Sequence record: LC788708.1
Length of the DNA: 64,000 nt
Source: Escherichia coli phage AZ21
Strand: one strand, 5' to 3'
Part shown: positions 33,811 through 40,034 of the stretch, in pieces
Layout: every line of letters starts with the position of its first letter
Numbering within the stretch: the stretch's first letter is position 1
The notes under the pieces: generated by a model
What the model was told of the DNA's origin: nothing
The model's input: only the letters and a program-made list of their open reading frames with translations
The model's database searches: none
Program-made: the position numbers and the translations under genes

Positions 33811-34138
33811 AACTCTATGAAATAACATAGAATAAAGAGATCCACCCGGATACGGATGGTGGATGGGAAACTTCTATTTCCCCCGTAGCTTGTCGGAGGG
33901 CTAGGGAAATCTTAAGAAGTTTTGTACCATCTCACGCAATTCGTATCCCAGGGGTGGAGCATCTCTTCCAATCTTTGGGGATCTTATACTTAAATTAAAG
34001 GTAAAACTTTTGGTCACATAATTTACATTCAAGATGATACACTGGTTGCCGCCATTCTTCCTAGGATGGCACAACACTTTCTTCTAGACTCCTAAGTTTC
34101 TAGGAATACTAACTCTAGAGTTTACACTAAACTTTGAA

Positions 34139-34876
34139 TCGGATTCGCACATGCTCTAGGGCAGTTTTTCATCTACTATAAATATCCTAGGCCGGTTTTC
34201 CTATACAGGGCGGTTATGGGGAGGGCGGTTATTTCTAGACAATAAAATTTACTCTTGTCAGTCCAGAAATTACTGTCGGATTTGCACATTGTGTTTCTAG
34301 AAATTTATGGTCGGATTTGCACAATTGCCTAAGTTTTTAGGAACATATAATCTCCTGAAAATGGCAGCATTATTTCGGGCCGAAGGCCCATGATTGCCTG
34401 AGTTTTTTTAGAGACACAGAAATTTTCACTTGTCAAGCTATTTTGCCCCATTTTGCTAATAAAATTTTACTTTATCTCCCCTAATCTCAAATTAACCCAA
34501 ATCTTCTCAACTCTTCTCCAAAATCCCCGCAAATCAGGTGCTCCGCACCAAACATGCGCCCCTCCCGTAGTTCCCCCAAGTTTCTCTCGATCTCTCAACT
34601 TCTCCCCAAACTCATACAATCACACACCCTCCAATCGAAGTCACAAAAATCTTGTCGGATTCGCACAAATAAACCCATGTCGGATTTGCACATATTCTAG
34701 TTAATTCCACAGGATTGATGCGCAGCATCGGATTGCTGGAGTTTTTGGGAGAATTCATTGTCGGATTCGCACACTATAAAAATTTTTCGGGTCGGATTTG
34801 CACACTACCAAAAATTGTCGGATTCGCACATACACGCCCACGCGTAATCCATGGGGGCAAATGTCGGATTTGCACA
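34139..34876 (+). repeat. nine dispersed copies of 15-bp motif TGTCGGATT(T/C)GCACA
   Basis: Copies at 34139, 34274, 34309, 34653, 34678, 34759, 34789, 34816, 34862, all same orientation. Confidence 0.8.
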
Positions 34877-34903
34877 AAAGCGCAGGGCAATTGCCCTGCT
34901 TGC

Positions 34904-35078
34904 CTGAATGCGAATGATAATGAGAATCATTTGCATTTAAAAAGCGGAATGAGAATGATAATAATTCGCATTTAAGAATGGAAGTGAGAATTATTCAGGA
35001 AGTGAAACGATTCTCATTTAAAAAGTGAAACGATTCTCATTTAGAAAGTGAAACGCGAATGATAATGATTCGTATTTA
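34904..35078. promoter_or_regulatory. array of Fur-box-like AT-rich palindromes (GAATGATAATGAGAATCATT family)
   Basis: At least five overlapping units, incl. tandem AAGTGAAACGATTCTCATTTA x2; related copies at 35413, 35805, 39463. Confidence 0.5.
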
Positions 35079-35290
35079 AGAATGGAAGTGAGAAACACTA
35101 TTATTTAAGTTATCCACAGACTTATCAACAGCACGATTTGACTTGACAGAATCCTAGCCATTTTGAGGCGTTATCAACAGACTTATCAACAGCTTATCCT
35201 ACTGTATAAATATACAGTATTCCTATGCAGTGAATAATTCTAATATACAGCTAAAACGCTCTCAAACGCATTCTAACGCGTTTAATTTTG
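35076..35290. repeat. left arm of about 215-bp imperfect inverted repeat (contains DnaA boxes TTATCCACA / TTATCAACA)
   Basis: Hand alignment with reverse complement of 39121-39336 (shared AAGTGAGAARCACTATYATTTAAGTTATCCACA, CAGACTTATC, ACTGTATAAATATACAG, AAACGCATTCTAACG). Confidence 0.75.
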
Positions 35291-35585
35291 GTGGGGATAC
35301 TAAAACAAGGGCAAAATTGGAGGAGGCTTGAAAATTAGTTAGCTCGCTAATGATCACACACGGCGACACGTAACACCCTAACCATTAGCAGGCTAACCAT
35401 CGCGGGCGTGGTCAAATGAGAATGATTCTCATTTGTGGATTGGGGGCGCTTCCTGATAGTTGCGCCCCGTGATTATTATAGTAGGGGGCAACCGTTACGC
35501 TTTGCCCACTCCCGCCACTCATCTTGGTGCCTAGACTTGCGACGGCGTACTAAAAACCGCTTGTACCAGTGATTAAACCATCGTT

Positions 35586-35789
35586 TCATAAATCCTCCTC
35601 CGGTAGTCGATGCGTGATCTTTTCCTCCTCCCCATAGGAATCCACCAAATACTGATAATAACCATCGTGATCATAAATCACTTTATCATATTCCCCACGC
35701 TCGACCGCTTGCCGATTTTCCAACGTATCAGGCACAAAGAAAGTATCAACGGTAACAGTAGTTTTAGTTACAACAATTTTATCACTCAT
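35586..35789 (-). CDS. small acidic protein
   Basis: Fur-like palindrome overlaps its upstream region. Confidence 0.45.
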   Translation of the reverse strand: MSDKIVVTKTTVTVDTFFVPDTLENRQAVERGEYDKVIYDHDGYYQYLVDSYGEEEKITHRLPEEDL

Positions 35790-35915
35790 AATGCCATCGC
35801 CCCTAGAATGAGAATGATTATCAATATCATTGTGAAGCCATTACCAAATCGTAAACGCTGGGAATGTTTCCCAGCGGTATTATTAGACTTATGGCTTTGT
35901 GTTTTTCGCCACCAG

Positions 35916-36116
35916 CTATTCACGGTAGACGCTCCATCCGTCTAGCTTCCATTCTTCCCCCTTGCGAATATTGAAAAACCAATCATTAAAATTGTAACCA
36001 TCTTCTGACATGATCACGCCGTTTTCTTTCATGTACAAAAATTCATCACTAGTAAAATATTGATTACTAACTTTAAAACCTTGTTTCATTTTTTCTAGTG
36101 CTTCATCTTTAGTCAT
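35916..36116 (-). CDS. small hypothetical protein
   Basis: Start overlaps upstream stop (ATGA). Confidence 0.45.
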   Translation of the reverse strand: MTKDEALEKMKQGFKVSNQYFTSDEFLYMKENGVIMSEDGYNFNDWFFNIRKGEEWKLDGWSVYRE

Positions 36117-37859: not shown

Positions 37860-37923
37860 AATTAGTCTCCTATTAATTAACAAGGAAATAGTAAAGCGGG
37901 GAAATAATCCCCGCTAGATATTA

Positions 37924-38157
37924 TTACTCGTTTTCGGTGTTAGTGGTAAAAGTAGAGATATCGATACCTTTTACCATTTCATCGATCATCTCAGCGATGT
38001 TAAAACTTTGCACCATTTCTAACATTGCCGCTTCCATAGCCGCCCCTGCTACCGCTTTCGCTTTCTGATTAGTCGGGGCGTACTGGTCAACCGCTACACT
38101 CAGCAGGTTAGCGATCACTACACGACCAATCGGCGTATCAATATAGCCTTTGATCAT
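37924..38157 (-). CDS. 77-aa ORF; probable C-terminal continuation of the 38138..38929 ORF across an A7 run
   Basis: Frame reached by removing one base from the T7/A7 run at 38166-38172. Confidence 0.4.
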   Translation of the reverse strand: MIKGYIDTPIGRVVIANLLSVAVDQYAPTNQKAKAVAGAAMEAAMLEMVQSFNIAEMIDEMVKGIDISTFTTNTENE

Positions 38158-38929
38158 AAACGGTGCTTTTTTTAGCCGCTACTTTCGTGATTTGAGTTAG
38201 TGCAATTTTACCAGCTTCCAGTTTTGCAGCGTTTACAACAGCGGATTTATTAGCGGCAACGATATTAGCGATCTTGGTCATGGTATTTTTTCCTTTGTTT
38301 TCAGTAGTTTGAGTATTAACGCTTTGAGTGTTAGAGCTTACAACCTGTTTTTCAATATTGTCAACTGGTTTTAGTGTAAATCCAGCATTTGCAACGTTTG
38401 ATTCATTCCCATACTCTAAATAATCACTAGGGATCAACATGTTGCCACTAGCGCGTTCAAAACATAACACGCCAGTTGTAGAAATTACATTACTATCAGC
38501 ACTTTTGTAATTAGCTGATAGTTCACGCCAAATGCTAGTTAATAACGATCCGACACTATCAGTCCTGATATTACTTACTTTTGTTGCTGTTACTTGCTCT
38601 TTTTCTTGCACGTTATATAATCGCGCAATGTAACCACTATTAGATTCACTATAACCAACAATGATAAAATCAATATCTCTTCCACGTTGATTGCGGAAAA
38701 TGTGATAATCACGGTTGAAAATTACTAGCGCCCTTTTCTGGTCTAGTAATTGTGTGAAATCTTCAACTGAATAATGAGTACCCTCATCGTCTAAAATTCT
38801 ATCATGAATCTTTTCGATAATAGTAGCGGTATGCTGTACGCTTGCCGCGCTACTACCCTCTAACAGATTGCGCAAACTGCCTTTAATAATAGTGGCGTTT
38901 GCTGGTACTGCAATTCTTACAGTAGACAT
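38138..38929 (-). CDS. first gene of the reversed cassette, hypothetical 263-aa protein
   Basis: GAGGGAG RBS; own promoter upstream. Confidence 0.5.
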   Translation of the reverse strand: MSTVRIAVPANATIIKGSLRNLLEGSSAASVQHTATIIEKIHDRILDDEGTHYSVEDFTQLLDQKRALVIFNRDYHIFRNQRGRDIDFIIVGYSESNSGYIARLYNVQEKEQVTATKVSNIRTDSVGSLLTSIWRELSANYKSADSNVISTTGVLCFERASGNMLIPSDYLEYGNESNVANAGFTLKPVDNIEKQVVSSNTQSVNTQTTENKGKNTMTKIANIVAANKSAVVNAAKLEAGKIALTQITKVAAKKSTVYDQRLY

Positions 38930-38962
38930 TTTATTTTGTCTCCCTCGTTAATCGGTGAGTGA

Positions 38963-38991
38963 ATGATAAGGGTAATTTTCTAGCATAGGCA
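38963..38991 (-). promoter_or_regulatory. minus-strand sigma70 promoter for the cassette (TTGCCT-17-TATCAT)
   Basis: Read on reverse complement; about 35 nt upstream of the 38929 start. Confidence 0.5.
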
Positions 38992-39120
38992 AATATTATT
39001 TTACTTTTTTATTTTCCTTGCCTAGCGTCTAATTTTATGCTAACCGCGCAGCGGTGCAATAAAGAGCAAACCACGGCGAAGCCACCAGCCCGACGCATTG
39101 AGGCTTTACTTTAATATTAC

Positions 39121-39336
39121 CTTACAGCGTTTAGCTCGTTAGAATGCGTTTTGGGCCACTTAAAATTGATTGCAGTTGTTAACACTACCTTTCTACCCTG
39201 TATATTTATACAGTGGAATAACCTGTGGATAAGTCTGTGCAAAAGTCCTTATATCACCGCCTATCGTGTCAAGTTATTTTGTGCTGTGGAAAACATTGTG
39301 GATAACTTAAATGATAGTGCTTCTCACTTAGGCTAA
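39121..39336. repeat. right arm of the about 215-bp imperfect inverted repeat
   Basis: Reverse complement aligns with 35076-35290. Confidence 0.75.
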
Positions 39337-39626
39337 TGATTTCTTATAGTTATTATTTCTCATTAATTTATAAGTATATTATATATTATCAAATAGTTAG
39401 TTGGCTAATGAGATTTTCCGTGATTAATAGTCTGCTAATAATTCAGGTCGTTACAATCCACCAGCATGATTATCATTCTAGCAATTATTAGTCTGCTATC
39501 TTTCCGATACATACTAACAAATAAAAGTCAATTAATTTATTTCATAAAATAAGTAGTTATCCACTGGAAAATAAAAGTCAAGTGGATAACTAGGAAAATT
39601 TCATTTTTGCTTTTGGGGATAAGTTA
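39225..39626. promoter_or_regulatory. DnaA-box cluster (TGTGGATAA x2 perfect, TTATCCACT, AGTGGATAA, TTATCAACA)
   Basis: Boxes at 39225, 39297, 39556, 39583, 39618. Confidence 0.6.
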
Positions 39627-40034
39627 TCAACAAGGCTAGAATGCGCCTAAAACGCTCCAGAACGCGATGAAGTTTTTAGCCACCCCATCATAAGGGGATA
39701 GGCCGTTTATCGCTGCCACGAGCTTTTTAGATTTTGTCAAGTAGGGGAAAGCAAATATAAATGAAAAAATTACTTGCCTATTTGCTTTATTTTGTGGTAT
39801 TCGCGCCCGTTTCTTTTAATTTTAGGCCGTCGCCGGACGTGGTGCGGTGAATTTTGTCTTTACGTTTCTTTACAAAAATAAGGTTGCGCCATTTTCGGGA
39901 ATCCCCTATTATTTATCACGTAGGGCGGCAATGACGAACTACACGGCGGGAAGTTTACCGCCACGCTCTTTAAAAATTGGGTACATCTTAAAGCCTATCG
40001 GCGGTAAACTTATTTATTATAAGGAATCGACGAT

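What the first reader, a model, noticed from the sequence alone, without database searches (positions are those of the whole stretch)
33815..39700. CTAG is conspicuously frequent in the repeat locus despite general avoidance of this tetranucleotide
There are many CTAG sites (TTCTAGACTCCTAAGTTTCTAGG, CTCTAGAG, TTTCTAGACA, GTTTCTAGAAAT, CCTAGGCCGG, ATTCTAGTT, and more in hairpin loops of pre-early genes). Enrichment in one locus suggests selection for a site-specific function (protein binding, nicking, or a methylation-related signal).
Basis: seen in the sequence. Interest (0 to 1): 0.3.

Follow-up and report, generated by a model that had tools for sequence, protein, structure and literature searches.

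The report
Small CTAG patch beside T5-type repeat
The claimed CTAG excess comes down to eight short palindrome-like CTAG sites in about 240 bases of conserved non-coding DNA just outside the terminal repeat of a T5-like phage; the phage does not avoid CTAG at all, so the finding is mostly ordinary.

Summary
The window is E. coli phage AZ23, a T5-like Tequintavirus, with its + strand equal to the T5 minus strand. CTAG is not avoided: there are 292 sites in 64 kb, with O/E 1.14-1.30.

The 5.9-kb region has 31 sites, 5.27/kb against 4.49/kb elsewhere (p=0.21). Its O/E under local-composition Markov models is higher (1.5-2.1 against 1.1-1.3). One 293-bp patch accounts for part of this excess, and scarcer CT/AG dinucleotides in the region lower the first-order expectation. 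Without the patch the region has 4.11/kb.

The real feature is eight CTAGs at 34,061-34,300:
- All eight are YCTAGR, against 29% window-wide.
- Six are 6-12-bp palindromes.
- They lie 110-350 bp outside the inferred left-terminal-repeat boundary (~34,410), in the outer part of T5's described "Repeat Region 3" next to the injection-stop region.
- All 35 relatives keep 5-9 CTAGs in this block (about 1.4 expected in the 15 tested). Individual positions turn over; one slot keeps a CTAG in 35/35 through four local sequence variants.

The best guess is protein-recognition sites within the conserved DNA-end module. Nicking and methylation are not supported. Interest is low.

Side observation: a conserved promoter followed by a long hairpin of non-conserved sequence at 33,782-33,967.

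The parts
34061..34300 (.). CTAG patch: eight CTAG sites at 34061, 34084, 34100, 34115, 34156, 34187, 34235 and 34297. All are YYCTAGR: TCTAGA x4, CCTAGG x2, TCTAGG x2. Perfect palindromes: AACTCTAGAGTT (34111-34122), TTTCTAGAAA (34294-34303), TCCTAGGA (34059-34066).
34028..34389 (.). Conserved non-coding block running from TTCAAGATGATACAC to the GC hairpin GGGCCGAAGGCCC (34377-34389). It is present in T5 and all 35 distinct relatives examined, with 5-9 CTAG each. It corresponds to about T5 NC_005859 10240-10610.
34406..34411 (.). Inferred inner boundary of the left terminal repeat, inside the motif GCCTGAGTTTTTTTAGAG. The T5 and SPC35 annotations both map to 34410|34411 and Stitch maps to 34405|34406. 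The repeat then runs rightwards to about 44976.
   Evidence: inference by homology; the chee130 annotation maps 208 bp further in
34091..34413 (+). Three same-strand copies of CCTRAG-N-TYTAGRR: CCTAAGTTTCTAGGA at 34091, CCTAAGTTTTTAGGA at 34328 and CCTGAGTTTTTTTAGAG at 34397. The last spans the repeat boundary. The related octamer TTTYTAGR occurs 6 times in 34097-34405, out of 29 in the whole window on both strands.
   Evidence: patterns defined after seeing the data
34139..34877 (+). Nine direct repeats TCGGATTYGCACA (the DRD repeats of T5 Repeat Region 3). Three lie outside and six inside the terminal repeat.
   Evidence: Davison 2020, 10.1101/866236
33775..35585 (.). The 1.8-kb untranslated gap between the T5.018 homologue (32884-33774, +) and the T5.017 homologue (35586-35789, -). 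It holds 12 CTAG (6.6/kb). It contains the homologue of the T5 injection-stop (iss) region, which is T5 9140-10149 and about window 34480-35600.
33782..33810 (+). Near-consensus sigma-70 promoter TTGACG-17-TATAAT with TG, pointing into the untranslated gap. The -35 and -10 hexamers are conserved in 15/15 relatives.
33835..33967 (+). Near-perfect hairpin of about 133 nt directly downstream of that promoter. The CTAG at 33901 lies near its tip. The sequence is not conserved between lineages, but the hairpin is.

Best explanation
**Location (shown).** It lies in the conserved untranslated DNA just outside the left terminal repeat of a T5-like phage. This is the outer part of the region described in T5 as Repeat Region 3, next to the injection-stop signal.

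**What the sites are (shown).** The eight CTAGs there are cores of short dyad-symmetric sites, YYCTAGR. Some are also the C-variant of a directional repeat, GTTTYTAGRRA, which recurs up to and across the repeat boundary.

**Function (inferred).** They are most likely recognition sites for a sequence-specific, probably dimeric, DNA-binding protein. That protein would act within the module of repeats straddling the virion DNA end (DRD repeats, GGGCGGTTAT repeats, GC hairpin, boundary motif). The process would be either making the genome end during packaging or controlling the pause and restart of two-step DNA entry. The binding protein and the process are not identified.

**Elsewhere (shown).** In the rest of 33.8-39.7 kb, CTAG occurs at the phage's ordinary, non-avoided frequency.
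For: - **Localisation.** 8 CTAG in 293 bp against about 1.2 expected. The rest of the region has 4.11/kb.
- **Shared extended motif.** 8/8 are YCTAGR, against 84/292 window-wide. 6/8 are palindromic hexamers, against 68/292 window-wide. Two of the window's three CCTAGG are here. There are 8-, 10- and 12-bp perfect palindromes.
- **Conservation.** T5 has 8 CTAG in the homologous place. All 35 distinct relatives have 5-9 per ~320-370-nt block. In the 15 relatives tested, about 1.4 are expected from base composition and CTAG ranks 1st-4th most over-represented tetramer in 12.
- **Maintenance through change.** The slot at 34084 has a CTAG in 35/35 genomes although the local sequence exists as TTCTTCTAGAC, TTCTAGTAGAC, TTCCTAGAAAC and TCTCCTAGAC. 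The count per genome has mean 6.9 and variance 0.9, while pairwise identity in the block falls to 64%.
- **Position.** The patch is 110-350 bp from the terminal-repeat boundary mapped from the T5, SPC35 and Stitch annotations. The block around that boundary is nearly invariant and is 95.7% identical even in a Klebsiella Sugarlandvirus.
- **Boundary motif.** CCTRAG..TYTAGRR has three copies here, one on the boundary itself.
Against: - The cluster is only marginally significant as a window-wide scan (p 0.03-0.3 depending on width).
- Given the patch's own trinucleotide content, the excess is about 1.8-fold (8 against 4.5).
- CTAG core columns are less conserved than neighbouring columns (entropy 0.64 against 0.39-0.45 bits). 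Individual sites are therefore not under special constraint.
- The 35 genomes are related, so stable counts partly reflect shared ancestry.
- No promoter lies in the patch.
- No DNA-binding domain was recognised in ten neighbouring proteins.
- The Klebsiella relative keeps only three of the sites.
- The extended motifs were defined after looking at the data.
Confidence: 0.4

Rival explanations
1. There is no selection on CTAG itself. The patch is a by-product of a conserved, repeat-built, T-rich non-coding block with duplicated units such as CCTAAGTTTCTAGGAA, plus chance. Any 64-kb window has one densest spot, and here it was found by eye.
For: - Scan p is 0.03-0.3.
- The second-order expectation is already 4-5 per block.
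- CTAG columns are not more conserved than their neighbours.
- A comparable hot spot of 8-9 CTAG per 500-600 bp lies inside the tape-measure ORF at 60.0-60.6 kb.
- TTAG and CTGG variants occupy the same slots in some relatives.
Against: - 8/8 YCTAGR and 6/8 palindromic hexamers are unlikely by chance.
- One slot keeps a CTAG in 35/35 genomes through four different local sequences, including a two-base change that destroys one CTAG and creates another 3 nt away.
- The hot spot in the tape-measure gene has mixed contexts.
Confidence: 0.38
2. The patch acts as RNA. It is transcribed from the conserved promoter at 33,782-33,810, through the long hairpin and into the terminal repeat. The CTAG palindromes are incidental parts of RNA structure or processing sites.
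For: - The promoter scores 11/12 with an extended -10 and is conserved in 15/15 relatives.
- No terminator-like site lies on the + strand before 34,723.
- The long hairpin is conserved in structure.
Against: - The patch does not fold better than shuffles as a single strand (z=-1.3).
- There is no Rfam match.
- Perfect spacer-less palindromes of 6-12 bp make poor hairpins.
- No transcript data were found in the papers searched.
Confidence: 0.1
3. The CTAGs are sites of the T5-type single-strand nicks, or targets of a modification or restriction system (XbaI-, AvrII- or BfaI-like sites).
For: The patch has four TCTAGA and two CCTAGG. T5 DNA does carry site-specific nicks (PMC10644984).
Against: - The annotated major T5 nick maps to AA|GCGC at 34879/34880, not to a CTAG.
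- From established knowledge, T5 nick sites share GCGC.
- TCTAGA is the commonest CTAG hexamer throughout the window (42 copies), so these sites are not special to the patch.
- T5-like phages are reported to avoid host methylation.
Confidence: 0.04

Closest known systems
[quoted passage not shown]
   Same: - It is the same locus by homology: the untranslated gap between T5.017 and T5.018.
- It has nine DRD repeats.
- It has paired DnaA-type boxes: TTATCCACA-GAC-TTATCAACA at 35110-35130, and TTATCAACA-GAC-TTATCAACA at 35171-35191.
- Their inverted partners lie about 4 kb away at 39198-39329.
- It extends about 270 bp beyond the repeat into unique DNA.
   Different: The CTAG-centred sites are not mentioned in the one description I could read (0 occurrences of 'CTAG'). 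About half of them lie beyond the stated outer limit of Repeat Region 3. No function has been shown for this outer part.
Terminase recognition regions flanking a cut site (lambda cosQ-cosN-cosB; SPP1 pacL-pacC-pacR)
   Same: Arrays of short repeats and a strongly conserved core sit on both sides of the position where the packaged DNA ends. One copy of a repeated motif lies on the boundary itself.
   Different: Nothing is known experimentally about how T5 ends are cut. No similar array was found at the other repeat end (44,976) apart from one motif copy inside a gene at 45,351. Binding by terminase is untested.
CTAG-core operators of dimeric repressors (for example TrpR half-sites ACTAGT)
   Same: The sites are short dyad-symmetric sequences centred on CTAG and present in several copies.
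   Different: The flanks differ (YCTAGR, not ACTAGT). There is no overlapping promoter and no cognate regulator was identified. The comparison rests on my recall of the TrpR operator, not on a test.
CTAG under-representation in enterobacterial genomes (Burge, Campbell and Karlin 1992; very-short-patch repair explanation)
   Different: This phage shows the opposite, with O/E 1.14-1.30. 155 of 248 coding CTAGs are a CTA codon followed by G.

Membership tests
Genome with CTAG avoidance | CTAG observed/expected clearly below 1 under composition or Markov models | tested here: not met
   O/E is 1.30/1.14/1.23 for the whole window. Equal-size sliding windows average 1.20-1.28.
Locus-wide CTAG enrichment (the finding as stated) | CTAG density or O/E in 33,815-39,700 different from the remainder | tested here: inconclusive
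   - Density is 5.27 against 4.49/kb, p=0.21.
- O/E is 1.5-2.1 against 1.1-1.3, so the result depends on the model.
- After removing a 293-bp patch the density is 4.11/kb.
T5-type Repeat Region 3 / iss region | Lies in the large untranslated gap at the inner end of the left terminal repeat, between the last pre-early ORF and the first early ORF | tested here: met
   The gap at 33775-35585 lies between the T5.018 and T5.017 homologues. The repeat boundary maps to ~34,410.
T5-type Repeat Region 3 / iss region | Nine DRD direct repeats and paired DnaA-type boxes 3 bp apart, with an inverted partner copy several kb away | tested here: met
   Families D3 and D10 and inverted repeats I1/I2, compared with the description.
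T5-type Repeat Region 3 / iss region | Acts in cis to halt DNA transfer after about 8% of the genome | not testable with these tools
   Needs infection experiments. It is not genetically defined even in T5.
T5 site-specific nick sites | Nick at a GCGC-type sequence on one strand | tested here: not met
   The T5 major nick at 9748/9749 maps to AA|GCGC at 34879/34880. None of the CTAG sites has this context.
Restriction or modification target | Sites confined to or avoided in particular places, with a cognate enzyme or a modified base | not testable with these tools
   TCTAGA (42 copies) and other CTAG hexamers are common throughout the window. Base modification cannot be read from sequence.
Terminase recognition array (cos/pac type) | Repeated binding sites flanking the position of the DNA end | tested here: inconclusive
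   Repeats straddle the inferred boundary and one motif copy lies on it. There is no comparable array at the other repeat end.
Terminase recognition array (cos/pac type) | Bound and cut by the phage terminase | not testable with these tools
   Needs biochemistry.
Operator array of a repressor | Dyad-symmetric sites overlapping a promoter, with a cognate regulator gene nearby | tested here: not met
   There is no promoter-like site in 34,000-34,450. No DNA-binding domain was found in ten neighbouring proteins.

The most novel reading that the evidence does not exclude
The number of CTAG-core sites (YCTAGR / TTTYTAGR) is kept by selection because, together with the DRD repeats, they form the recognition module for making the right end of the packaged T5-type genome, or for restarting second-step DNA transfer. 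If so, part of what has been called the 'injection stop' repeat region would in fact be the long-sought end-forming (pac-like) site of phages with long terminal repeats.
Probability: 0.15. Interest if true: 0.55.

Novelty: already known. Interest (0 to 1): 0.18.

Why it matters
As stated, the finding matters little. The phage does not avoid CTAG, and the locus as a whole is not richer in it.

The residual patch adds a small detail to a region that has been described for almost forty years without an assigned function: the repeat-rich DNA at the inner end of the T5 terminal repeat. If the CTAG-core sites were shown to bind a protein, they would offer a handle on one of two open questions about T5-like phages. 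One is how DNA entry pauses and restarts. The other is how the exact ends of a genome with 10-kb terminal repeats are cut.

The general over-representation of CTAG, about 4.6 per kb against a host in which it is the rarest tetramer, is a reminder that host-type oligonucleotide biases cannot be assumed for virulent phages.

Tried and rejected
- **Stop-codon freedom.** I expected non-coding DNA to be richer in CTAG because it is free of the in-frame TAG ban. Coding and non-coding densities are the same, 4.54 against 4.68/kb, so I rejected this.
- **Hairpin loops.** CTAG in hairpin loops of pre-early genes was not found.
- **Folding of the patch.** As single-stranded DNA it folds no better than shuffles (z=-1.3).
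- **Rfam.** A search of 33-41 kb gave only chance microRNA-type hits.
- **Pfam.** Ten neighbouring proteins, including the A2 homologue, showed no DNA-binding domain.
- **Matching array at the other repeat end.** There is one CCTGAGCTTCTAGAG copy and three CTAGs at 45,318-45,360, but they lie inside a small ORF and T5 keeps only one of the CTAGs. I dropped this as evidence.
- **Regular spacing.** The eight sites are spaced 23, 16, 15, 41, 31, 48 and 62 bp apart, with no helical phasing.
- **Phage tRNA for CTA.** I looked for one to explain the general abundance of CTA|G. None of the six tRNAs in the window reads CTA.
- **Relatives via protein search.** The search for related loci with the T5.018 homologue returned only one locus. 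Relatives were gathered instead by DNA search.
- **Davison 2015 review.** It was not available in the paper library.
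Full report
**Identity and map**

Window 33,000-41,000 is 100% identical to Escherichia coli phage AZ23 (LC788707.1; Demerecviridae, Tequintavirus). It is 80-93% identical to many T5-like phages. Comparison with the annotated T5 record NC_005859 shows that the window + strand is the T5 minus strand.

- ORF 32,884-33,774 (+) is the T5.018 homologue.
- ORF 35,586-35,789 (-) is the T5.017 homologue.
- The 1.8-kb gap between them corresponds to the untranslated T5 segment 9,157-10,936. That segment contains the annotated injection stop signal (9,140-10,149), the major nick (9,748/9,749) and the end of the left terminal repeat (10,219).
- In a 15-genome alignment, the annotated repeat boundaries of T5 and SPC35 both map to window 34,410|34,411 and that of Stitch to 34,405|34,406. 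One record, chee130, maps 208 bp further in.
- The other end of the repeat maps to 44,976|44,977.

**The observation**

All the quoted strings exist, but they lie between 34,082 and 34,701.

The premise of general avoidance is wrong:
- The window has 292 CTAG, against 225, 256 and 237 expected under zero-, first- and second-order models (O/E 1.30, 1.14, 1.23).
- Coding and non-coding DNA have the same density, 4.54 and 4.68 per kb.
- 155 of 248 coding occurrences are a CTA codon followed by G.

The stated region is only weakly different from the rest:
- It has 31 CTAG, 5.27/kb against 4.49/kb elsewhere (Poisson p=0.21). 19% of equal-size sliding windows have at least as many.
- Among 208 equal-size windows that lack the patch, 13% (order 0), none (order 1) and 3.4% (order 2) reach the region's O/E.
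- Two things contribute. One is a single 293-bp patch. The other is that CT and AG dinucleotides are scarcer in the pre-early region, which lowers the first-order expectation.
- Without the patch the region has 23 CTAG, 4.11/kb, slightly below the window mean.
- The terminal repeat as a whole has 3.6/kb.

**The patch**

- Eight CTAGs lie at 34,061-34,300, against about 1.2 expected (pointwise p=5e-5).
- As the densest spot found by scanning 64 kb this is only marginal: 8 in 250 bp p~0.03, 9 in 400 bp p~0.08-0.10, 9 in 500 bp p~0.3. These values come from third-order Markov simulations and from random placement.
- A similar hot spot lies inside the tape-measure gene at 60.0-60.6 kb.

What sets the patch apart is the context of its sites:
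- All eight are YYCTAGR, whereas only 84 of 292 CTAGs in the window are YCTAGR (binomial about 3-5e-5).
- Six are palindromic hexamers (TCTAGA x4, CCTAGG x2), against 68 of 292 window-wide.
- Two of the window's three CCTAGG are here.
- Three extend to perfect palindromes of 8, 10 and 12 bp: TCCTAGGA, TTTCTAGAAA and AACTCTAGAGTT.
- The hot spot in the tape-measure gene has mixed contexts.

Some of the sites belong to a directional repeat:
- CCTAAGTTTCTAGGA (34,091), CCTAAGTTTTTAGGA (34,328) and CCTGAGTTTTTTTAGAG (34,397) are the only matches to that pattern in the window, apart from one at 45,351. The third copy spans the repeat boundary.
- TTTYTAGR occurs six times in 34,097-34,405, out of 29 in the window on both strands.
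- These patterns were defined after seeing the data.

**Relatives**

- T5 has eight CTAGs in the homologous 250 bp.
- I collected 35 distinct versions of the block from TTCAAGATGATACAC to GGGCCGAAGGCCC, from GenBank phages and IMG/VR contigs. Every one has 5-9 CTAGs in 320-370 nt.
- In the 15 relatives tested, base composition predicts about 1.4 and a second-order model 2.6-5.2, and CTAG ranks first to fourth most over-represented tetramer in 12.
- A Klebsiella Sugarlandvirus keeps the promoter, the GGGCGGTT repeats, the DRD repeats and the boundary sequence, but only three of the CTAG sites.

Individual sites are not specially conserved. CTAG core columns have higher entropy than other columns of the block, 0.64 against 0.39-0.45 bits. 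Yet the number per genome is stable, with mean 6.9 and variance 0.9, while pairwise identity falls to 64%.

One slot (34,084) carries a CTAG in 35 of 35 genomes although its local sequence exists in at least four forms: TTCTTCTAGAC, TTCTAGTAGAC, TTCCTAGAAAC and TCTCCTAGAC. One of these is a two-base change that removes one CTAG and creates another 3 nt upstream. Another is a two-base shift that keeps total length.

This pattern suggests that having a CTAG-core site there matters more than its exact register. However, the genomes are related and I did not run a phylogenetic null model.

**What it most likely is**

The locus is known. Davison (bioRxiv 10.1101/866236) describes T5 Repeat Region 3 as conserved in order among T5-like phages, containing nine DRD repeats and paired DnaA boxes, and overrunning the repeat by about 270 bp. 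AZ23 has all of these. That paper does not mention CTAG, and about half the patch lies beyond its stated outer limit.

My best explanation, at confidence about 0.4, is that the CTAG-core palindromes are protein-recognition sites within the repeat module that straddles the DNA end.
- Shown: the location, the shared motif, and the conservation with turnover.
- Inferred: protein binding, and the process served (end formation in packaging, or control of two-step entry).

The main rival, at about 0.38, is that there is no selection on CTAG at all: a conserved, repeat-built block plus the selection effect of spotting the densest place by eye.

An RNA-level role is possible but unsupported. A conserved promoter points into the block, but the patch does not fold better than shuffles.

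Nicking is not supported, because the T5 major nick maps to AA|GCGC at 34,879/34,880. Methylation cannot be tested, and T5-like phages are reported to escape host methylation.

**Novelty and score**

- The genome is a database entry.
- The locus is a described feature of T5-like phages.
- The stated enrichment largely fails its own test.
- The CTAG-core motif array is a small, apparently unreported detail of uncertain significance.

Interest is 0.18.

**Side observations**

These are listed separately. The most notable is a conserved near-consensus promoter at 33,782-33,810 followed by a hairpin of about 133 nt. The hairpin sequence differs completely between lineages, but it folds with z-scores of -3.4 to -8.5 in all six phages tested.

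Noticed in passing
window 33782-33967 (+); also L002 10695-10880 (-), L004 1290-1439, L005 1350-1499, L008 1320-1469, L016 1597-1799: A near-consensus sigma-70 promoter (TTGACG-17-TATAAT with TG) sits directly after the stop of the T5.018 homologue. Its hexamers are conserved in 15/15 relatives and in a Klebsiella Sugarlandvirus. A 110-135-nt near-perfect hairpin follows it. The hairpin sequence is unrelated between lineages, yet it folds strongly in all six phages tested (z -3.4 to -8.5; AZ23 -64 kcal/mol). It is not annotated in T5, has no Rfam match, and is not mentioned in Davison 2020. It could be a small structured RNA, a 3' stabiliser or terminator of the leftward early operon, or a DNA cruciform.
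   Followed up: partly
window 35200-35219: TACTGTATAAATATACAGTA is a perfect CTGT-N8-ACAG palindrome matching the E. coli LexA (SOS) box consensus as I recall it. It lies inside the injection-stop region and is conserved in T5 (tactgtatatttatacagta) and in the Klebsiella relative. LexA is not mentioned in Davison 2020.
   Followed up: partly
window 34907-35094 and 35414-35434: Repeated GAATGATAATGAGAATCATT-type units lie here, plus the 19-bp perfect palindrome AATGAGAATGATTCTCATT. Its core TGAGAAT-G-ATTCTCA matches the 7-1-7 Fur-box consensus (TGATAAT-N-ATTATCA, from memory) at 13 of 15 positions. With the DnaA boxes and the LexA-like box, the injection-stop region looks like a collection of host DNA-binding-protein sites.
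   Followed up: no
window 34340-34450: The roughly 110 bp around the inferred terminal-repeat boundary, including the hairpin GGGCCGAAGGCCC at 34377-34389, is the most conserved stretch of the untranslated gap. It is nearly invariant in 15 genomes and 95.7% identical over 47 nt in a Klebsiella Sugarlandvirus. This suggests an essential cis-acting site at the DNA end.
   Followed up: partly
window 45318-45373: Three CTAGs and a fourth copy of the boundary-type motif (CCTGAGCTTCTAGAG, then GTTTTTAGG) lie 340-400 bp beyond the other end of the terminal repeat. They are on the same strand, inside the small T5.161-like ORF. T5 keeps the motif but only one of the CTAGs.
   Followed up: partly
window 40392-40445: A 54-bp near-perfect palindrome has 24-nt arms (96% complementary) and a 6-nt centre, with a CTAG at the inner end of each arm (40412, 40422). 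It lies in the non-coding region upstream of the A2-side pre-early genes (T5 Repeat Region 1) and just outside the finding's coordinates.
   Followed up: no
window 35916-36116 (-): The 66-aa pre-early protein gives a weak, sub-threshold Pfam match to the Tad2-like (Thoeris anti-defence 2) domain, with E=0.005 and 17.8 bits against a cut-off of 25.
   Followed up: no
whole window: CTAG is over-represented throughout this phage (O/E 1.14-1.30; 4.6 per kb), the opposite of its E. coli host. 155 of 248 coding occurrences are a CTA codon followed by G. None of the six tRNA genes in the window reads CTA.
   Followed up: partly
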